Source of the DNA: Podarcis cretensis
Taxonomy: Eukaryota
Assembly: GCA_951804945.1 (NCBI GenBank)
Contig: OX638150.1
Location: 11,284,001-11,348,000, forward strand
Direction: 5' to 3'
Length of the DNA stretch: 64,000 nucleotides
Part shown: one piece after another, positions 33,120-61,229 of the stretch
Position numbering within the stretch: position 1 is the stretch's first letter
Layout: the number at the start of each line of letters is the position of its first letter
Notes under the pieces: model-generated
Seen by the model: the letters and a program-made list of their open reading frames with translations, nothing else
Database searches by the model: none
Told to the model about the DNA's origin: nothing
Made by a program: the position numbers and the translations under genes

Positions 33120-33352
33120 TCACAATAAGGGATTTCCAGAGAAATACTGCAGGCGGTCTCTGCTTAGTTTTTTTTCTTTCATCCTTCTGTTCTGAAACCA
33201 AATTTTAACTTGTCGATCAGTGAGATTCAACATTCTGGACAGCTGCAGCCTTTTTTCTTTGTTTATGTAGACATTGAAGAAAAATTCTCTCTCTAGCTCT
33301 CTGATTTGGAATTTCGAATAGGGACATCGCTTCTTTCTTGTGCGGGGGGCAC
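33120..33352 (-). CDS. HOXC11: Homeobox protein Hox-C11, coding exon 2 (homeodomain)
   Basis: Translates to (S)[76 protein letters not shown]. Acceptor is a pyrimidine tract then cctaaag| at 33354-33353. Confidence 0.97.
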
Positions 33353-34783
33353 CTTTAGGGGGGAGGGAGGGAGAAAAATATAACCAGGAGGGAGTGAAAA
33401 TAACTAAGCAAATGACACAACAGAGCCCCAATAACCGCCCCCCCCCATCACCAAGATCTCAAATGCATAGCTTCTCTCTCACACGCACCCATCTGGAAGC
33501 ACATCCTACGGCCATGTGTAACATCCTAACAGACATGTGTACCACAACACAGCCATGAAGACAGCCTTTCCTGTTTCCAGCCCATGATCATTTTCCCCTG
33601 TTTTGGGGGGCTTTTCCAAAGGGATTCCTGAGTGCAATAATCAACAATAACTGCTGGGGGGAAGGAAGCCGGCGAAGCAGCTGGGAAGCATAGACGTTCA
33701 AACTGCAAATCTGCCGCCTTTCTTACAGAGTCAGCAGGAGCAACGTTAGAACTATGAGGGCTCAGAATTCTGCTCTGCATAAGTTTTTGATTATCGGGAA
33801 CGCCACCCTCCAAATACATTCAGCACACACATACACACAGAGAGAGAATCAAAGCAACATATCTGAGCAGTCTAAAAAAAGGGAAGCAATGTGTTTCCCA
33901 AGGCAGCAAACAGAATTGCAAACACAACGTGTGCGCGCGCCTGTGTGGGTGTGGGTGTGTAAGTTCATGCAGGACTTAGCCTTCCATTCACCTATGAATG
34001 AAAAAATAAATAAACATCCATGATGCATTTACTTGAACAGTTGCTTCGATTTAAGGTTGTTGTTGTTGCTTTAAAAATGAAAATAAACCCACTTATATAT
34101 GAATATCTAAAGGCATCTGAGTATATTAAAATATACTTAAAATGTGTGTGTGTGTGTGATAAACACATTTAATAGCAAAATAAGCATTGTCTATTTGAAA
34201 AGAAATCACCCAAAGAACTACGCCTAAGCAATGCAATTTGCAGGAAGAAAAGCAACAACAAGAGCAAGAAGAACAACACAGGATGCACTGAGGACATGAA
34301 AACGTTGCATTCCCTTTCCCCACATTCATAGCAATATAGATATATATTTGAATTTCTGCATGCATTTTCAATAAGGGAAAAAAATAACACCACCCGCCCC
34401 CCCCCGCTCGCTCGCGTGCATCTCTCAGTGCTTCCTCGCGAGGACAGGAAGCAAGAGCAGTGTTCTGCCCAATTGCCTTTTACCCTCAGAAGCCCGGGAC
34501 CAAATCCTTTTAAAATGCTCATGTAAGTTCATGATCAAAGTTAATATTTGTCACCATGGTGTGCTTTTAAAATTTCACAGACTCTGAGATACTGTGTCTG
34601 CGCCTAACATCTCCATTTTTCTCAAAGAGCCTTTCCCATCGTAAAAATTCTTCTCGTTGCAAGAAAGAGCTTTGTAGGTTATAATAAAATCCTTTGAATG
34701 CTTATAAAACTCCACATAAAATTTGACCGACAAAACAGCGGGCTAGTCCCTTAACCTTTCCATTTACTGCTTTCTCTACCTAC

Positions 34784-35462
34784 TCGAGTTGCTGGTTTTG
34801 CTCCCTTCCTTGTTGACAGAGGAGGATGAAGCTGAAGAGCCCGGGTTGGTGTTTTCTTCCTCGTCTTCCGGGTCTACGCCTTGGTCGCCGCGGGATGACA
34901 GCGCGGTGGGCTGGGAGTCGGTCTCCAGCTTGCTCTCGGTCTTCTGCAAACAGGTCTCGGGCGGGTTCTCGGTGGAGCAGTAGGCGTTTTCGAAGAACCG
35001 GTCGAAGCCTTGCGGGAGGACACTGTTTTTGTTCATGCTGGAGTAGAAGCCCGTGGACGCCGGGTGGTTGGAGCTAGGGTGGTGGTGGTGGCTGTACACG
35101 CTTTCGTTTTTCATTAGCATTTCGGTCATGGTGGAAGGCGGGAGGCAATCCCTGTGCATCAGATCTTCCGCGGAATAACACGAGGCGTAATTGCTTCTAT
35201 GGTGCCATTTATTCGAGGGGTCTAGCCCGTAGGAGACCTCTCGCACTGGCTGCACTTGAGAGAGGTTAGTGGAATAAGGGTAGGAGATTTGGCGAGAGGG
35301 GGCCTGTGGCAAAAAAGATGACACAGTTGAAAATTCTGGGACGTAATAGGTGCAGCTGGGGAGGTAGAGATTGGAAGCGCAACCTGCTCGCTCTCCAAAG
35401 TCAGCACTCCGCTCTTTGCGCGACTGGGAGCAGAAGTTTCCTAGGTTCACTGAGTTAAACAT
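34784..35462 (-). CDS. HOXC11: Homeobox protein Hox-C11, coding exon 1
   Basis: [18 protein letters not shown]...[34 protein letters not shown]...[15 protein letters not shown]. Donor A|GTAGGT at 34783. Exons of 679 + 233 nt give 303 aa; intron 1431 nt. Confidence 0.97.
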
Positions 35463-42810: not shown

Positions 42811-44206
42811 GTCTCTCCCCCGCCCTCTCTCTTTATAGATATATACACACAGAGTGACTTACTAAACTGAAATTTAAAATATCTGTTTTCTTAGTAACTT
42901 TATATTGCTTTAGTTATTGACTTCATCCTACTAGGATTCAGAACCAGCTTGTCTGAAGTGCTGTTTGATGCTTCTATTCTCTCCCTCACGCGCACATTCC
43001 ATCATTCTGCTTTCTTTATCAGACATACTCCCTTTGGGACTTCTTCAAATCTGCTATTCTGTGTCTGCATATAAATGGATATTTTTTTACAGTAAGGAGT
43101 TTAGGAACTCACATGGTCGCATTGTCCATTTCAGTAAGCTGTAGGGAGAGCAAATCCAAAATTGTGCGTCCTCTGCACGCTGGAAAAGGATGCAGATTTG
43201 TTTGGCTTTGTTCTTAAAATACCTTTAAATGCTAGCAGCGAGATACTAAATATTTTAAGCTCGGAGTTCCCGTTGACTTCAAGGATGTGCACATAAGGAT
43301 GTCTCCTCATAGTGACTCGTATAGTAGGTAACGTGGCAAGTAGGCTGCTGTTTACAACAAAAATAAAGCAACGCTAATTGATAATGTGGGACTGAAAGGA
43401 AAGGACAAGTATATTCCGTGTTGATTTTTTTTTTTTTAATACAAACAGAGGCCGTCTTTTTTGAGGTGGAGTCTTGTTTACCAATTTCCTCTGCCATGCA
43501 GGGCAAACGAATGAAAAAAAAGCTCTCCCGTGCCTTCTGCGCCACGCAGAAATCCCAAAACAAATAAACAAACAGGACTGGAAGTTCAAAACGGGGAAGA
43601 ACTGCTGATAGCGCTGCAAATGCACATCTGGCATTAGTCTGGGAAGAGCCACACAAGCGCGCGCGCGCACGCTGTATAGATTAGGCGGCTTTGGAAACTG
43701 TCACTGGGAAATCTGTTCATTTTCTCTAATGGACTAGGAGAAGGATTGTTGTTATATTCCTCGCCCATCCCACAACAACATCCTTGCTAAACAGCACGCA
43801 CGAACGCCGGGTGTCAAGACAATATAAATGATTGGGTTTGTGTTTTTTTGTTCATATGCGTTGCGGCACTGCCGCCTCAGCTAAGTAACAACTGTATGCG
43901 CTACCGCTATGGAGGAGGGCCATAGACCCAGGCGAAATTTATAGCGGCCCCGGCGTTGCGGTTATGATTTTGCTATGATATTACTTGGGAACAAAGTCCC
44001 ATTGATTCCCTTGGAAATCTACTCTCTTGCAAAGGCGTGGGGTTTTTTTGTTTGGTTTGTTGCTTTCCCTCCCTTACTCTCACCGTCCCCACCGCACTCC
44101 CACGTCGCTGCCAATACGAGAAGAAAATGGGAAGGGGGGGGTGAAGCTACTTGGATAGCCTAAAATTATGGGTTGACCTCGATGGAGATTTAATTCTCAT
44201 GCTCCC

Positions 44207-44225: not shown

Positions 44226-44963
44226 TAAGGAAGCGAACCTGCTCTTCTCCGTCTCAGCCAAAACAAGGACTCCAGCCATTTTTCATATCTTTCCTTCGAG
44301 AAGAAGACTTATCTTTCACCATAATGAGAACGGCTTTGCCACTGAGAGGGAGGGGCGCTTTCTTTTGGGGGTGGGGGGTGGGAAATAAATAAATAAATAA
44401 AGCCTCTTTATTCACCCACTAACCACCCACTTTCGCCTCTCTCTCTCTCTCTCTATTTCCTCCCTTTCCCTTCCCTTCCCCTCTCCTCCATCACCCTCCA
44501 GCCCTTATCCCAGTCGCGATATCACCTTATCGGTTCAATCTATGTAAAGACCACCCACCCACTCCCCTCTTTAACCTCCGAATCCCTGGCAGATCTCCTG
44601 TGCGCAATTAAGCCCGTTCTGGGACCTCCGACGGACAACCTGTGATATGAAAATGTCTATAATCCAGCCCTCCACAGTAGACAGGCTACTCAAGACTTTG
44701 CAGGATCTCCCCTCATTTCCGCTCTTATTAATTTCAGGCGCTCTGATCTATCCAGCCCATCCCTCCCACCTCCTCCTTTATTTAAAGATTATACGATTAA
44801 GACAAGAAAATCTAAACCCTCCTTTCCCTTCTCCCCTCCCCCCACCCATTCTCCCCCTCTCCTTACCGAGCGAACTTCATTGTTTTCTGGAGGAAACCGT
44901 AATGTTGAGACATTAAACCCTAATTGGGCTTTTCTTTATGACGTTTAATTTCCTCCATCGCAG

Positions 44964-45329
44964 ACGTGTTTGCATCTTGCTGAAAGAGGAGTTGTTTGAA
45001 GTCTGCAATCCCGGAGGGGGGGGGGGAGAGGGAGGGGAAAAAAAAAACTTTCCAAGCAGCAGTCGTCATGCGGACTTCTGGTCTCATTCCCACATAGTCT
45101 CACCCTCCATGCACCCCCCACAGCCTTCCTCTTGATCGTTGCATTCAGATAGCCCCCCCTCCCTCAAAATAAGAATGGTGATGTAAAAGAGAGGGGAAAA
45201 TGGGCCCGGGGGGGGTGTTTAAAAAGAGAGACAGAGACCCATATGTTTACTCGGGTAAGAAATGCGATGGCCATTTAGCTCTGTTGTGACAAATCCATGA
45301 AAATGGAGGACCGCCGTATACCATATAAG
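44964..45329 (+). ncRNA. HOTAIR: Putative HOTAIR-orthologous segment (exon 3-like and exon 4-like blocks), antisense to HOXC
   Basis: Syntenic position and strand. GAAGTCTGCAAT...G-tract and ATGTTTAC...AGAAATGCGATGGCC...GAAAATGGAGGACCGCCG..CCATATAAG|GT resemble human HOTAIR exon 3 and exon 4 sequence as recalled. Possible acceptor at 44963 and donor at 45330. Transcription is not shown. Confidence 0.6.
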
Positions 45330-46512
45330 GTACGTAGGATGCTAACTTGACCTTCACTTTGTAATGGCGGCCCCCGCCCACCCAGACAGACTGTTGTAAA
45401 CAAAAGTCATCCGACCAAAAAAAAAAAAAAAAAAAAAAAAAGATTAGCACCGGGCAGACAAGGTCTCGCAGAATTGCTAACACATTTGCTGGTTTTTAAG
45501 CTGCGGCAAACGAGGTACAATATTCTCTGAACTACAGTAGGGGACGGAGTGGGGGTGGGGGATGGAGGAGGAGGAGGAAGAAGAAGAAGGGGGGCGGGCC
45601 TCATCATTGAAGATCAACAAAGGTCTCCCCAGATCTTTAGTTTGCTGTATTAAAGGGTTGTTAAGAGGGAGTCTTCCAATGCCGGGCTTCGTTTAGATTA
45701 CAGCGTCCGGAGCTGTTATTGAATGTGGCCTTGAGGTAGAGGGTGGCTGGGTGGCTGGGTGGGGGTGGCCGGCGCTTCTCTTAATGAATTTATCTGTCCA
45801 GATTCTTAAAAAAAAACAGCAATTCTTCATTACGATGACGACGAGGACGGACGATTTACGAATTCACTCTAATTTTAATGCAGGAGATCATTCAAAAAAT
45901 CGCCTCTGCTTTTATTTAAATCTATAGAATGTTTTGTTTACGTCAATCTGAAATGGAAAGTGTTAAAAGAAAGCGCGAGTAGCCTTCCTTCTTTCCTTTT
46001 TAAGGAAGGCAACGAGAGTCTCCCGACTCGCCATTTCCGCAGCAGCCAAATCACAACAGTGGCAAAAAGTTTGTCAGAGTGCAGAAAATAGGTTTCGTTT
46101 TCCTTTTCGAAATGCTGTGTTTGGGCCCAGGAAAAGGCTCGGTCCGTGATTGTCAGTGCGGGGAGTTCAGCCTTGTATGGTGGTGGCGGCTGTTTGCGGG
46201 GAGGGGGGGGGGAGGGAGGAGGAATCGAGACTGTACCTGATCAAACAATATAATTTATTTAACATACCTTTTTGCTTGTCAGTTACCTAGACATAATGGA
46301 GCGCTATCGATAGACGGGTCATGGATCCCGATCCACTGCACGTATTAGGCGATCGTCTCCATTTAAGTCATTTTATTCCCCTTTAAACCAACCTAGTAAT
46401 AATGGCCACCAAGTTATTGCATCTTTCACAAACTCAGAACTTTTAAAATCAGCGCCGCATACTTCACTGATGCAAGGCCGCCAGTCGTTTATATAGATGA
46501 GTAACTAGGAAA

Positions 46513-48280: not shown

Positions 48281-48470
48281 TTCCTATCCTTTTCATCTTT
48301 ATTATCACTCTTGTTAACAACACCAGCGAGGCTTGATACATATATCTCGTTTAAATGCAGTCAGCCATGAAGCCACTGCAGTTGGTTGCTACAGACATAT
48401 TAATTAATTTATTCTCTCAACAGTAAAATATTGCTGTGTCTCCTTGCTACCAACCAAGTCATATAAAAAT
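48281..48470 (+). ncRNA. HOTAIR: Putative HOTAIR terminal-exon (exon 6-like) conserved block
   Basis: TTCATCTTTATTAT..CTTGTTAACAACACCAGCGAG..TATCTC..TCAGCC..TAATTAATTTATTC..AGTAAAATATTGCTGTGTCT is collinear with the recalled human HOTAIR last-exon sequence CATCTTTATGATG..CTTGTTAACAAGACCAGAGAG..TAATTAATTGATTC..TGTAAAATATGGCGGCGTCT. Confidence 0.6.
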
Positions 48471-54594: not shown

Positions 54595-56928
54595 ATCAGA
54601 AATCACATAATAATACATTCAATTTATTATTATTATCATTATTATTATTATCATCATTATTATTGTGAAACAACTTTTTACATGACTATATAAAGCCGGG
54701 GGAACGTGCTATGGACAGACATTTGCATAGGCCCTACATATAATAGCTTGAGGTAAGAAACATTACATATGGACTATATTGCCAACGATGCATATTTAAC
54801 AACAGCAGGAAACTAGACTAGAGAATAACAAGCGAAGGACCGAGCCACAGACACCGGGAACTAACACAAGACGAACAGAATTCACACGGAATAATAATAC
54901 TTCAATGCAATCTGAACGAGAATATTGCATATATTTAACTTCTTCATTTTCAAATTTTAAATTATTACTCCCCCTCCCTTTAAAAAAATCGTTGAAGTGG
55001 CAACTGAGAATCGCCTGTTATGTGCAGTTACACACCAAGGAGACCATTCTCAGGACTCAAGATTCTTGCTGGTGGGTTGTGTATTGTATTTCTAAGCGTA
55101 AAACTCCTTCGCTGTAGATAGAAATCGCTCTCGGCGCGTAAAATATTAACATCAAGACAGTCTCTTTCTCTCTGTCTGTCGCCTTCCACAGTTGTAACCG
55201 AACGCTGCGTTATAACATTGCCCCGTAAACGCTCAAAACCCTGGTAAGCCAGCCGCCAACCCCTTCCAAAACGCAACCTTTTGCCAGCGAGTGACATGTC
55301 ACATCTTTTCAAGAGGAAGCGATGGTAGCAAACCAAGTACAATACTGCTAAGTCTGATTCCTCGAACATATTCCTCCTTTACCGCACAGACACAAATCTT
55401 CCCTTCTAGATTTATGCAACACACCCCATGACATTTCAGTTGGCTGAAAGTCGTTATTTTGACCGAAAATGCTGCTTCTTTCTTATTAATATTATTGAGA
55501 AAACTGGGACAAAATGGATGATGACAGCGCTACCGGCTTAAGCGGTTTCATCGGACTGCTCTGTTCAAAGGAGGCAAAGCACAGGCTGGAGACAACGGGA
55601 ATGGCGTTAGACTGAAGCCTACAGTTTTCAGTTCTTCAAGGTACCTTTTTGGAGAAATAGGTAGGCGTCCTCCACATTTAGCCGCCTAACAACACAGACA
55701 CCCACATGTGCTCTGTTCATTGCACATAACTGGGGGGGGGGGGGAAATATATGGATGTCTCTCACACACGCCCGCCTCCCAATCTATTGCACATAATTGT
55801 GACTGGGTACCTATTAGATTCAAAGCAACTCACAGGCAGAGACATGCCTCTTCTTTTACAAAGGTTAGAGTTTGTAAAGGGGAGGGGTGATATACCAAAA
55901 GGGTGATACTGGGATGGGGGACCTCTCAAAATTCTGGATATTGGGGGGGGGGGGTAGGGGGAAAGCGGACTAAAGACAAGGAACGATGACACAGCCATGG
56001 GAAGCAGACCTAAATATAAGGCTTGCAAGGGTGGAGAATGAGCGGGGCGGGGGACACACAGAGGCATTTTAAGGACTAGACGGCATCCTTTGCAGCTCGT
56101 AAAGGCAAAGCATTCCTGCCACCGGCCATGACCATGAACGCCGGGACGGGGAGCCACGTGGTGACAATTGAGTCTGGCCCAGGAAAACGTTGCCTTTGTC
56201 ATAAAATTAATCCCCTCCGATATAAAAACGAATGAAGCAAAGCCTGTCGTAGCAAAACTCGCCGCTTAGACCGTCTTGACCCCCCTCACCCTACTTTGCT
56301 GTTGTGGCTCATTTGTCTCTTCGTCCAGTTCCCGGCCGCTCCCCCCCCACCCCGCCCAGCGGCATTTTTTTTTTTTAAAGTATGCAATTAGGAAACCAGC
56401 AGAACAGAACGAGAATAGGTTCCTGGACCCCGATGGAATAAGTACCAGGAATATCAAGGGAACTTATTCCCAAGTCAATCATTTAACGGGCTGACAGGGA
56501 GAGAGATTCCTGTCGGGTTACTTCCACGGTTGCAGCAACCCTTGTCTGCCGCCTCCCCGCGCGCCTTCCTCCCCGCATTGAGTGGGAATTTAAGGAATGG
56601 GAGTTTAAGCAATGCCCAAGCCTGGCAGAGCTATTAGGAAATCTAATGGTTGTCTGAGGCAGGAGATGACCGGCAAGGCAACCCGCTCTGCGCTTCCCCT
56701 TGCCCGCTCTGGGACTGTTCTACACCGGGGAAAGTACAAAGGGGAACCGGCGGTGGGGGTGGGAGTTAGACGGATGAATGAATGCGTTGGGCAGAAATTA
56801 CCGTATATCCCCCAAAGCAGGATGCGTGCGTTTGTGTGGCTGTAGTGTGTGTGTGTGTGTGGGGGGAATAAGGCGACACCCCCCATAAATGTTCAGAGTC
56901 ATCAGCTGCTGCCTATGAAAAATCAGGA

Positions 56929-57059
56929 NNNNNNNNNNNNNNNNNNNNNNNNNNNNNNNNNNNNNNNNNNNNNNNNNNNNNNNNNNNNNNNNNNNNNNNN
57001 NNNNNNNNNNNNNNNNNNNNNNNNNNNNNNNNNNNNNNNNNNNNNNNNNNNNNNNNNNN
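56929..57059. other. Assembly gap (131 N)
   Basis: Run of n characters. Confidence 1.
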
Positions 57060-57483
57060 ACTGCCGTGATTAAAAATAAAAATCTAACTAAATATGAGGA
57101 AGATTAAAAGAGGGGAGGGGTGGTGGAGGTAGAGGAGAAACATCTCATTCATTTCGAAAATAGCCACCATTAAAGAAAACGTTTTTAATGCCAGACGAGA
57201 ACTCTCTATCTTAGAAGGAGGGAAGCTATTAATAGCTTAATTAGCTCCAAGGGGCTGCTACTATAGTTAATGTATAAAAGGGGGCATCCCCCCACCGCCC
57301 CTCGCCACCATCTTGATCATCAATAAACACAGTAGCATAATAAGCGGGACGAAGTCTCCTTCAGTGGAGCTATTATCAAAACACAAATTGAAATTATTGT
57401 TATCCTTCTGTTCCGCTTATGGGGTTGTGGACAGAGGAGACCCATGCAGGCGGCGCGGCTGGACTAGGAACGCGAGAGGTACC

Positions 57484-58754: not shown

Positions 58755-58993
58755 TTAAAAGAAGGAAAGGGCTTGCTCTCTCAGGAGGAGTCTTTTCTTT
58801 TTCATACGCCGGTTCTGGAACCAGATCTTCACCTGCTGGTCACTCAGGTTTAACCGATCTGAAAGCTCCCTCCTTCTTTGGCGAGTAATGAATTCATTGA
58901 CCATAAACTCCCCTTCCAGCTCCGCTAGCTGTAGTTTAGAATAGGGTTTTCGCTTTTTCCGGGACCTTGTGTGCATCGGGTACCAGGGAGCAC
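58755..58993 (-). CDS. HOXC12: Homeobox protein Hox-C12, coding exon 2 (homeodomain)
   Basis: Translates to (G)[78 protein letters not shown]. Acceptor ttcttag| at 58995-58994. Confidence 0.97.
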
Positions 58994-59351
58994 CTAAGAA
59001 CAGCGTGATGGAAAGGAGATTTAAACACACGGAGGGGAAGAGAGATAGAGAAAGAAAGAAACGAAAAGAAAAAGGGGAGCGGGTAACGCTTTAAAAAAGG
59101 GAATGCTTCCCCCCTCCCTTTTTGACCCACACACCGCTCCTTATTTAATAATATGAGATACACGTTTCTAATGCGCAATCCAGTAAAGATGCTTTAACTT
59201 CGAAAGAAAGGAGGATGGGTGGGAAGAAGACCTTTACATCTTCGTTTTAGATTCCAAGCTCCTGGGCTCCTGTGTACCACATAAGTCATACATTGCAGGT
59301 TTTCGGAACTATTAAGATTTAAGGAGAGACCTTAAAAAGAACTAGTTAGGG

Positions 59352-59403
<52 letters not shown>

Positions 59404-60347
59404 GCTGGACTTTTATAACCGATGGCAACTTTTGCTTATTTATCTTACAAAAAAATAAGCAACCTAAGCTAGCTCTTGCAGATCCCGAACAGCCAAAAAG
59501 TACCAGCACCACCAGCTAGAATGAATGCTAGAGTGTCTCTGTGGTTACCGTGTAAGACCTCAAGGCACCAGATGGGCTGGCATGCCTTAGGTGTCCGGTT
59601 TAGGAGATGTCAGATCTGAAGTTTAAGGACGAGGAAGCCTCTGTCTTCAGAGTCCCAAAGCCAGATTCTGCAGAGGGAATGAAACATCTCCAGCAGCCAG
59701 GGACGCTTCACAGGAGACGAGAACCAACTGGTCCTTGTTCCTGGAAGTGTTTGCTCACCAGAGGATCAGGCACATAACGGGAAGCTTTATGAGAGAGAGT
59801 TTGTTTGGGTTGGGGTTGGTTTTTTTTTTTTTTGTATTTTGGCAAATGGTGTCTCAGCATTGCGTGGATATATATACTTTTCTTTATAGAACCTTCCCGG
59901 TTTTGTATGGGGATGGGCTGGGATGGCGGGAAGGCGAGAATTGGGTTTTGAAAACCAGGGTGTTTGTTTCCCTTTTTTTAATGCAGAGCTTGGCACCATC
60001 CTTAAAATGGGTTTTTACCCAGGGTGGCTAATCTCACCGGGGACAGAAAACCCGTGGAAGTTTAGCCCTGCAGTCAGACTTCTACCAAATCTTCCAAATA
60101 CAATCACACACCCTTCTACATTTCATTTCTGTTGCAAAAGCTTCACGCACCCAGTGGGAAATTGTCCTGCATGTAGCGTGCCTGTTCGGATTCGGGAGGA
60201 GGGTGGAGAGAGAGAGAGAGAGAGAGAAAGAAAGAGGCATGGAAATCTGTCTATCTGGGCCATCGCGATCTCTTTTATGGGATATTTACATGTTTATAGG
60301 CTTTTCTTTTAAAAGAAGCAGCACCTAATAAAGCACGAGGCATTTGA

Positions 60348-60366
60348 GTGCTACCCCTAGTGGCCT
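60348..60366 (-). promoter_or_regulatory. Candidate CTCF site AGGCCACTAGGGGTAGCAC in the HOXC12 intron
   Basis: GGCCACTAGGGG core match by eye; not scored with a PWM. Confidence 0.5.
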
Positions 60367-60588
60367 CGGCACAAATAGACATGCTTCAGTCCCAGCTGCT
60401 AATTTCATGGAATTTATAACAGCAAGAGTCGCGAGCAGACTTTTTCAAGCGAGAGAGCGCGCGCGCGTAAGAGAGAGAAATAGAGAGAGAGAACACAAAA
60501 TAAGAATAAAATAAAGAAGAGGCATTGCATAAATTCGCTTTTCTTATTCGTATATATATATATATATTTCCTGGTCGCACGTTCTTAC

Positions 60589-61153
60589 CCCCAGCGGAAA
60601 GATTGCTTCCTTGGTTGATAGGGGAAACCATTGTGGACGGCTCGCTGGTGGCGCCCTTATTGCCTTCATTGAGTAAGGAGGAGCTGGAGTCTGACTCCAA
60701 AGACTGACAAGAGGGGGGATCGTGGGGCACCGCCTCGGGAGCCGGATAGTCAAATTTGCCGAAACTGCCGCTCATTCCATTGGGGATCCCCGATTCGAGA
60801 GGCATCAAGGCATTGTCCCTAACCCTCTCTTCCCTTTTGAGGGGAGCGTTCTCGGAGCACGCCTCCCTATAGTAGCACTTGCTCTCTTCCACTCTAGCTA
60901 GGTCGCAGGCTCGGCTGAAGGAAGGGTTAATAGACACGGGGCTGCTGAGATAGGGCTGGGGGTATCCGTTGCAGGGTTCTGAGGATGCCCAGGGCAGAGA
61001 ACAGACATTGTCCCTTCTTGGGTAGGAGAGAGACGGCAAGCCGGGCAGCTGTCCTCCGGAGGCTCGGAAATTGGGGAAATAGAAGGTGTCTCCCGTATGG
61101 ATGTTCACCAACGGTCCCACAAACCCAGGATTAAGGAGATTATGTTCGCCCAT
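60589..61153 (-). CDS. HOXC12: Homeobox protein Hox-C12, coding exon 1
   Basis: [53 protein letters not shown]...[23 protein letters not shown]. The true ATG is at 61153; the ORF track starts earlier at a TTG. Donor G|GTAAGA at 60588. Exons of 565 + 239 nt give 267 aa; intron 1595 nt. Confidence 0.97.
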
Positions 61154-61229
61154 TTCCGCGGGCCTGACCAAGAGCTTCTAGTTTATTGCTATCTGACATT
61201 AAACATAGTTAAACCTAAAGGTCCACCCT

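What the first reader, a model, noticed from the sequence alone, without database searches (positions are those of the whole stretch)
44940..45045. HOTAIR exon 3-like G-rich block behind a plausible splice acceptor
Seen: TTTAATTTCCTCCATCGCAG| (acceptor-like, 44963) followed 34 nt later by GAAGTCTGCAATCCCGGAGGGGGGGGGGGAGAGGGAGGGG. Recalled: human exon 3 contains GAAGCCTGCAGTAGGGGAGTGGGGAGTGGAGAGAGGGAG, inside the 5' region reported to bind PRC2. PRC2 is known to prefer G-tract/G-quadruplex RNA. The block lies about 330 nt before the exon 4-like donor, in the expected order. Inference: a G4-capable module could be ancestral in amniotes.
Basis: partly seen in the sequence, partly recalled or inferred. 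Interest (0 to 1): 0.7.

Follow-up and report, generated by a model that had tools for sequence, protein, structure and literature searches.

The report
Reptile remnant of HOTAIR exon 3
This reptile likely keeps a worn-down copy of exon 3 of the much-studied mammalian non-coding RNA HOTAIR in the expected place, but its run of G letters looks like ordinary repetitive DNA rather than an ancient protein-binding fold, and the one likely spliced RNA fragment found in a relative runs the opposite way.

Summary
The sequence is as described and lies in a reptile HoxC11-HoxC12 interval with HOTAIR exon 4, the known vertebrate CNE and exon 6 blocks in order. Homology to exon 3 is likely real and does not rest on the G-run. 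A 10-base core equals cow's published exon 3, occurs once in 64 kb, and sits 331 nt before the exon 4 donor (mammals 298-424). It lies 34 nt behind a top-1% acceptor (mammalian exon start 36-40).

The ancestral G4/PRC2 module is not supported. The window has 28 canonical G4 motifs, hundreds of unrelated contigs match the G/A run, and 0 of 10 published mammalian exon 3 sequences hold a canonical three-tier motif. No exon 3 donor is left.

The acceptor AG is kept in 3 of 3 relatives covering it, but its use is not shown. One relative's contig reads through it and joins 44867 to about 43344 at GT-AG signals of the opposite, Hox-sense strand.

Best reading: a conserved regulatory island beside the HOTAIR enhancer, also inside a Hox-sense exon. 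The scan had not noted this on other DNA.

The parts
44944..44963 (+). Acceptor-like site (pyrimidine tract + CAG) at the position expected for the HOTAIR exon 3 acceptor; use not shown
   Evidence: Rank 12 of 1469. No difference listed here in X14 or X15; X19 keeps the AG with C>G at -5.
44998..45007 (+). Non-repetitive 10-base core shared with mammalian HOTAIR exon 3
   Evidence: By eye: 10/10 with cow; first 9 identical in horse and dolphin; 9/10 in the 4 primates, dog, mouse and rat. Unique in the window.
45016..45037 (+). G11-AGA-G3-A-G4 purine tract, able in silico to form a three-tier G4; likely a slippage-expanded run
   Evidence: In X14, summed depth is 9784 at 45025-45049 against 130 in the flanks, and two contigs over the runs have a gap.
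45038..45047 (+). A10 run; no usable exon 3 donor follows (best GT in 45010-45170 scores -1.5 bits; the GT nearest the human position, 45062, scores -5.7)
44854..45026 (.). Conserved island holding the minus-strand donor, five homeodomain-type cores (44866-44963), the acceptor-like site and the core
   Evidence: X19 contig 161/173 alike, no gaps, unlike letters before 44854. X15 139/140 alike here against 26/30 at 43314-43343 (Fisher p 0.004). Homeodomain cores 5 against a mean of 1.2; 2.6% of windows reach 5.
44861..44869 (-). GT donor (first intron base 44866) of a likely Hox-sense intron of about 1522 nt
   Evidence: The X15 contig leaves the window here. 7.5 bits, rank 20 of 1187. Sequence.
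43113..43370 (-). T-rich tract and tandem CAGCAG acceptor (AG ending 43345), then the likely next Hox-sense exon; a strong donor at 43112 could end it (not shown)
   Evidence: The loose end of the X15 contig maps to 43314-43343. The acceptor is weak by matrix (-0.5 bits; 4.0 at 43348); the donor at 43112 scores 8.6 bits.
45226..45335 (+). HOTAIR exon 4 homologue ending at 45329 with a strong donor
   Evidence: Rfam HOTAIR_3 33.1 bits, E 4.3e-5, below gathering 80. Donor 9.6 bits, rank 7 of 1127. The model consensus is the reverse complement of the published exon 4.
45342..45373 (+). The published 32-nt HOTAIR CNE (enhancer-like), 12 nt after the exon 4 end (8 nt in human)
   Evidence: 30 of 32 letters alike with Table S1 of PMC7139118, by eye
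48283..48430 (+). HOTAIR 3' conserved blocks (placed in exon 6 by their order along the locus, an inference)
   Evidence: Rfam HOTAIR_2 47.5 bits, E 1.4e-8; HOTAIR_1 22.9 bits, E 2.1; both below gathering
33120..35459 (-). HoxC11 (two exons), flank
   Evidence: DUF3528 + homeodomain; paralogue name from gene order and recalled Hox sequences
58755..61177 (-). HoxC12 (two exons), flank
   Evidence: homeodomain in exon 2; exon 1 had no Pfam hit; name from gene order, recalled

Best explanation
The block is likely the diverged orthologue of the 5' half of mammalian HOTAIR exon 3, and it is likely kept as regulatory DNA and as part of a Hox-sense exon rather than as an RNA G-quadruplex. Shown: it sits inside a 170-bp island conserved among relatives, about 320 bp from the HOTAIR CNE, which has enhancer marks in human and mouse. 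Inferred: the island carries homeodomain-type sites and works with that CNE in cis on HoxC11/HoxC12. Inferred from one contig: a transcript on the Hox strand crosses the island, reading the G-run as a C-run, and splices from 44867 to about 43344 towards HoxC11, much as ncHOXD11 does at the paralogous CNE. Inferred: the G11 run is a slippage expansion of an older purine-rich stretch, so its G4 potential is incidental.
For: Homology: core identity, uniqueness and spacing (core to exon 4 end 331 nt against 298-424 in 10 mammals; exon start to exon 4 end 365 against 338-461); rough joint chance for core plus acceptor 4e-6 to 1e-4 for 1-30 motif tests. Island: X19 161/173 alike without gaps; X15 139/140 against 26/30 in the next exon, p 0.004; homeodomain cores in the top 2.6%. 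Hox-sense splice: the contig breaks exactly at a top-2% minus-strand donor and resumes behind a minus-strand AG, and no plus-strand GT-AG fits; rough chance 3e-4. G-run as background. Literature: CNE with enhancer marks and bidirectional CAGE; ncHOXD11 starts about 55 nt before the paralogous CNE (PMC7139118); deleting mouse Hotair acts in cis (PMC5157951).
Against: The exon 3 comparison is by eye on a short match with gaps upstream. No Rfam HOTAIR model hit 44900-45150 at E up to 10, and BLAST of human exons 1-3 finds nothing significant even in mouse (PMC3102750). The Hox-sense join rests on one contig (depth 5.6) in one run whose RNA status is a guess. Only 30 of about 281 loose letters were seen, the join needs one letter different from the window at 43344, and the acceptor scores weakly. 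A strong plus-strand acceptor 34 nt before the core (about 1% by chance in a 20-nt band) is better explained by real HOTAIR-sense splicing than by a DNA element. The enhancer role is untested, and the motif enrichment is modest and was chosen after looking.
Confidence: 0.5

Rival explanations
1. A HOTAIR-sense RNA is made in this reptile and uses the acceptor at 44963. With no exon 3 donor left, the exon would run 366 nt to the exon 4 donor, fusing exon 3, intron 3 and exon 4. The acceptor is then what is conserved, with no special role for the G4.
For: Acceptor rank 12 of 1469 at -34 (mammalian exon start -36 to -40); exon 4 donor rank 7 of 1127; AG kept in 3 of 3 relatives that cover it; a HOTAIR-like host transcript is listed for coelacanth; the first mouse exon is 234 nt and only its second half matches exon 4.
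Against: The one spliced-looking contig crosses 44963/4 without a joint and fits the other strand; this does not exclude plus-strand RNA. X19 has G at -5. Mouse tissue RNA-seq showed no spliced 5' exons (PMC3102750), although unspliced upstream transcription exists (PMC5157951).
Confidence: 0.27
2. One reading: an amniote-old G-quadruplex module in HOTAIR exon 3 that binds PRC2.
For: A three-tier G4 is predicted if the plus strand is transcribed (-18.8 kcal/mol in 102 nt, still present in the 366-nt model). All 10 mammals are purine-rich after the core. PRC2 prefers G-tract and G4 RNA in vitro, including two-tier (GGAA)10 (PMC5706960). The human block falls inside the annotated EZH2-binding region 141-440 (PMC12723722; mapping by my arithmetic).
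Against: 0 of 10 mammals have four G3+ tracts with loops up to 12 nt, and mouse and rat have two after the core (by eye). The G/A run varies in length in a close relative. 27 other canonical motifs lie in the window. G4 was not dominant in human 141-440 by CD. The minimal 89-mer is described as two duplexes (PMC4881525). PRC2-RNA binding is not G4-specific, and its occurrence in cells is disputed (PMC13316113).
Confidence: 0.07
3. Chance likeness: the island is a reptile element unrelated to exon 3, and a 10-mer, a strong AG and a common G-run happen to lie upstream of the true exon 4 homologue.
For: No Rfam hit. If any 10-mer of any of the 10 exons were allowed anywhere in 300 nt, a match is not rare (my estimate about 0.1, not computed in a call). 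7 of 202 strong acceptors in the window are followed by a G4Hunter block. The second conserved block of mammalian exon 3, near its 3' end, has no convincing match by eye.
Against: The match falls on one of the two best-kept stretches of the 10 mammalian exons, at the right distance, with the acceptor at the right offset and a further TGAAA(G) shared with cow and horse upstream.
Confidence: 0.15

Closest known systems
Human HOTAIR exon 3 (NR_003716.2; hg19 chr12:54360161-54360060 in PMC3103462 supplement S2)
   Same: Position before exon 4, core motif 34-40 nt into the exon, purine-rich tract behind it, anti-Hox orientation.
   Different: Here the purine tract is a G11 homopolymer plus A10, the 3' conserved block and donor are not recognisable, and use as an exon is not shown. 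PMC3103462 found exon orthologues only in mammals (platypus, chicken and zebrafish gave none; no reptile was searched).
HOTAIR CNE / enhancer (PMC7139118)
   Same: Present at 45342-45373, 30 of 32 alike, just after the exon 4 donor; already listed for alligator and painted turtle.
   Different: The finding is a separate island about 320-490 bp away. No squamate is in Table S1. Their flank alignments (mmc1.pdf) could not be read and may already cover it.
ncHOXD11 (Hox-sense non-coding transcript starting about 55 nt before the HoxD CNE; PMC7139118)
   Same: A Hox-sense transcript in the Hox12-Hox11 interval near the CNE, heading towards Hox11.
   Different: Here only one contig supports it; its start and any link to HoxC11 are unknown; it is in HoxC, not HoxD.
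Mouse AntiHotair (PMC5157951)
   Same: Hox-strand transcript between Hoxc12 and Hoxc11.
   Different: AntiHotair is unspliced, about 1.8 kb, starts at a CpG island near the Hotair 3' end and stops near the Hotair end; the contig here looks spliced and overlaps the exon 3 region.

Membership tests
HOTAIR (locus/lncRNA) | Lies between HoxC11 and HoxC12, with homologous blocks in anti-Hox orientation and in exon order | tested here: met
HOTAIR (Rfam HOTAIR_1-5) | Score at or above the gathering threshold | tested here: not met
   0 hits at gathering in 64 kb; 33.1/80, 47.5/60, 22.9/44; none over the finding at E up to 10. Which exon HOTAIR_4/5 model could not be established.
HOTAIR exon 3 | Sequence homology outside G-runs | tested here: inconclusive
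   Core and spacing favour it, but only by eye and short-motif counts; no formal alignment to mammalian sequence was run
HOTAIR exon 3 | Acceptor at the 5' end | tested here: met
   As sequence only: rank 12 of 1469; AG kept in 3 of 3 relatives covering it
HOTAIR exon 3 | Donor about 102 nt after the acceptor | tested here: not met
   Best GT in 45010-45170 is -1.5 bits; 45062 is -5.7
HOTAIR (locus/lncRNA) | Spliced transcript on the anti-Hox strand | tested here: inconclusive
   4 runs laid, all contigs; no plus-strand joint; one join fits the Hox strand
HOTAIR (locus/lncRNA) | PRC2 binding by the 5' domain | not testable with these tools
   Needs biochemistry
Canonical three-tier RNA G-quadruplex | Four G3+ tracts with loops of 1-7 nt | tested here: met
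   45016-45037
Conserved G4 module | Tracts kept in orthologues | tested here: not met
   0 of 10 mammals by eye; horse reaches four tracts only with a loop of about 26 nt; two-tier G4s remain possible
ncHOXD11-like Hox-sense transcript | Spliced on the Hox strand in the Hox12-Hox11 interval | tested here: inconclusive
   One contig in X15 with GT-AG only on the minus strand
ncHOXD11-like Hox-sense transcript | Start near the CNE and linkage to the Hox11 gene | not testable with these tools
   Contigs show no starts; only 30 loose letters were given

The most novel reading that the evidence does not exclude
The HOTAIR exon 3-4 region is an amniote-old, two-way transcription unit. Reptiles splice an anti-Hox RNA into 44964, so HOTAIR's 5' exon structure predates mammals. 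They also make a spliced Hox-sense RNA across the same island, the HoxC counterpart of ncHOXD11 and possibly an upstream leader for HoxC11. Sense-antisense overlap at the CNE would then be the ancestral state, of which human HOTAIR and ncHOXD11 are the surviving halves.
Probability: 0.13. Interest if true: 0.62.

Novelty: new member of a known kind. Interest (0 to 1): 0.3.

Why it matters
HOTAIR's age, and whether it acts as RNA or as DNA, are disputed. A reptile remnant of exon 3 would push one more piece of the locus back to the amniote ancestor, beyond the known CNE. What is kept (a short core, homeodomain-type sites, splice signals on both strands) and what is not (the G-tracts in register, the exon 3 donor) favour a cis-regulatory reading over a conserved PRC2-binding G4. 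The Hox-sense splice gives a cheap test of whether HoxC has a counterpart of ncHOXD11. The evidence is thin, so this is a modest lead.

Tried and rejected
No whole genome is held for this window. The Rfam search of 44900-45150 at E up to 10 gave 9 chance-level hits, none HOTAIR. A scan of metagenome contigs for a vertebrate copy of the locus gave 1 match, L001, which reads as bacterial coding DNA with no HOTAIR hit; dropped.

Sequencing runs: 24 listed, 20 holding part of the stretch, no RNA holder listed; 4 of the 24 were laid and 20 were not. X16 gave only 31-50 nt records on the G/A run. The X19 record at 45218-45249 and the X14 loose ends in repeats come from unrelated places. No run covered 45250-45330 and X19 did not cover 44600-44853; a hole proves nothing. 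In X19, 4 of 12 differences lie near contig ends and are unplaced, so it is unknown whether its core is intact. No silent control stretch was laid on X15, and the CNE itself was not compared across relatives.

A plus-strand reading of the X15 join was rejected because no AG precedes 44866 and no GT follows 43343 in a register that fits. The internal CGCAG of human exon 3 was considered as the homologue of the acceptor and rejected: it lies 18 nt before the core and is absent in the 6 non-primates. The longest ATG frame in a minus-strand splice model is 86 aa and was not pursued.

Wu 2013 (PMC3964825) is not held. No paper naming RF01906-8 was found. The scan's own notes had nothing near, nothing in relatives and no note with HOTAIR or HoxC11. 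A formal alignment or profile against the mammalian exons was left out because those sequences were available only as text in a paper.

Full report
Setting. The window is a vertebrate HoxC cluster with the Hox genes on the minus strand: Hox9 and Hox11 N-terminal domains, homeodomains and miR-196 (paralogue names from gene order and recall). An unchecked note of this scan calls the genome a lizard; I did not test that. The finding lies between HoxC11 (start 35459) and HoxC12 (end 58755). Rfam models HOTAIR_3 (45226-45328, 33.1 bits, E 4.3e-5), HOTAIR_2 (48283-48348, 47.5 bits, E 1.4e-8) and HOTAIR_1 (48393-48430, 22.9 bits, E 2.1) match below their gathering scores. The HOTAIR_3 consensus is the reverse complement of the published exon 4, so the HOTAIR-sense strand here is plus. 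The 32-nt CNE of PMC7139118 follows the exon 4 donor, 30 of 32 alike by eye. The locus is therefore the HOTAIR region, which is already known to have a CNE in alligator and turtle.

Observation. All letters and distances are as reported. The acceptor scores 9.6 bits on a recalled frequency matrix, rank 12 of 1469 plus-strand AGs in the interval and within the range of the four true Hox exon 2 acceptors, 5.9-12.2.

Is it exon 3? By eye, the window's 10-base core equals cow at 10 of 10; its first 9 letters equal horse and dolphin; it differs by one letter in the four primates, dog, mouse and rat. It occurs once in both strands of the window, and the expectation in the 128-nt band allowed by mammalian spacing is 0.0004. 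Core to exon 4 end is 331 nt here and 298-424 in mammals. Exon start to core is 34 nt here and 36-40 in mammals. Allowing 1-30 motif tests, core plus acceptor come to roughly 4e-6 to 1e-4 (independent terms, chosen after looking). Against this, no HOTAIR model hits 44900-45150 at E up to 10, the 3' conserved block of mammalian exon 3 has no clear match, and no donor above -1.5 bits lies in 45010-45170. No formal alignment to mammals was run. I put homology at about 0.8.

Is it a conserved G4? In silico the tract folds into a three-tier G4 and has the top G4Hunter peak of 54 plus-strand regions, by 0.04. But the window holds 28 canonical motifs and 34 G or C runs of 8 or more, and this one ranks 12 of 28 in predicted stabilisation. 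In the close relative X14, 424 records were laid and summed depth at 45025-45049 is 9784 against 130 in the flanks, so the G/A run matches many unrelated places. Two contigs over the runs carry a gap (G or A run not resolved). In the 10 mammalian exons, by eye, at most three G3+ tracts follow the core (two in rhesus, cow, dog, mouse and rat), and 0 of 10 have four tracts with loops up to 12 nt. Two-tier G4s remain possible, and PRC2 does bind such RNA in vitro (PMC5706960). The human block lies within the annotated EZH2-binding stretch 141-440, but CD showed no dominant G4 there, with ThT ambiguous (PMC12723722). The minimal 89-mer is described as two duplexes (PMC4881525). G4 is not necessary for PRC2 binding, and binding in cells is disputed (PMC13316113). 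A shared purine-rich stretch is plausible; a selected G4 module is not supported.

Relatives. Four of 24 listed runs were laid on 44600-45330, all as contigs. X14 has one contig over 44600-45024 with 5 other letters, of which 4 are listed, all at or before 44831. X19 has one gap-free contig over 44854-45026 with 12 other letters in 173, the AG kept, C>G at -5, four differences unplaced and unlike letters before 44854. X15 has a 421-nt contig (depth 5.6) that matches 45005-44866 at 139 of 140, crosses 44963/4 without a joint, and then leaves. Its loose end maps once in the window, at 43323-43343 (3 mismatches in 21; 0.01 expected), extending to 43314. In that organism the island is far better kept than the distal piece (1/140 against 4/30, p 0.004).

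The join. On the minus strand the break falls exactly at a GT donor (7.5 bits, rank 20 of 1187) and resumes behind a T-rich tract and tandem CAGCAG, giving an intron of about 1522 nt. No plus-strand GT-AG fits. A random break would show this about 3 times in 10,000 (rough). Limits: one contig and one run, RNA status guessed, 30 of about 281 loose letters seen, a weak acceptor score, and one letter that must differ from the window. A genomic deletion or chimera is less likely but not excluded. The simplest reading is a Hox-sense spliced RNA whose exon contains the finding, on which the G-run is a C-run. It does not exclude a plus-strand RNA.

Mechanism. Shown: position, conservation of the island, splice-like signals on both strands, G-run as background. 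Inferred: the island, with five homeodomain-type cores in 98 nt (top 2.6%; motifs recalled), acts as cis-regulatory DNA beside a CNE with enhancer marks and bidirectional CAGE in human (PMC7139118), and lies in an exon of a Hox-sense RNA comparable to ncHOXD11. This fits mouse data that Hotair has two exons, lacks a BLAST match to human exons 1-3 (PMC3102750) and acts in cis when deleted (PMC5157951). Confidence is 0.5. Rivals are a used HOTAIR-sense acceptor giving a 366-nt fused exon (0.27), chance likeness (0.15) and an ancestral G4/PRC2 module (0.07).

Novelty. The locus and CNE in reptiles are known. Searches for HOTAIR with reptile, lizard, snake, Anolis or non-mammalian terms, and for Hox-sense HOXC11 upstream transcripts, listed no paper whose title or abstract describes a reptile exon 3 remnant or this splice. 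The library lacks most subscription journals, and the unreadable Figure S1 of PMC7139118 may show the flank. Verdict: new member of a known kind, interest 0.3.

Papers seen. PMC7139118: parts 1-4 of 6 and Table S1. bioRxiv 10.1101/250621: passages and section 6 (its supplements are closed). PMC3103462: parts 1-2 of 7, passages, part 1 of 5 of supplement S2 plus search hits (S1 unreadable). Passages only: PMC5157951, PMC3102750, PMC8293171, PMC8046370, PMC9181245, PMC13316113, PMC5706960, PMC10746524, PMC3750649, PMC12723722, PMC4881525. Wu 2013 and Guo 2024 are known only through those passages and listings.

Noticed in passing
window 44867 to 43344, minus strand: A contig of run X15 joins these places at GT-AG signals of the Hox strand: a likely spliced Hox-sense non-coding RNA between HoxC12 and HoxC11. 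A strong donor at 43112 could lead to a further exon.
   Followed up: partly
window 45255: A second strong plus-strand donor (9.1 bits) inside the exon 4 homologue, 75 nt before the main one.
   Followed up: no
window 45417-45441: An A25 run sits where, by analogy with ncHOXD11 (about 55 nt before the CNE on the Hox strand), a Hox-sense start would lie.
   Followed up: no
window 48283-48430: HOTAIR_2 and HOTAIR_1 blocks are recognisable below gathering; HOTAIR_2 is the best-scoring HOTAIR piece in this reptile.
   Followed up: partly
window 20315-21235, minus strand: HoxC10 exon 1 carries a long proline/glutamine run (about 30 residues), perhaps a lineage-specific expansion.
   Followed up: no
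window 14199-14272, minus strand: miR-196 precursor, the only Rfam hit at gathering in the window (87.2 bits).
   Followed up: no
window about 56920-57060: A run of N (assembly gap) in the HoxC11-12 interval.
   Followed up: no
L001:4034-5200: Chance 21-letter match in what reads as bacterial coding DNA; unrelated to the finding.
   Followed up: partly
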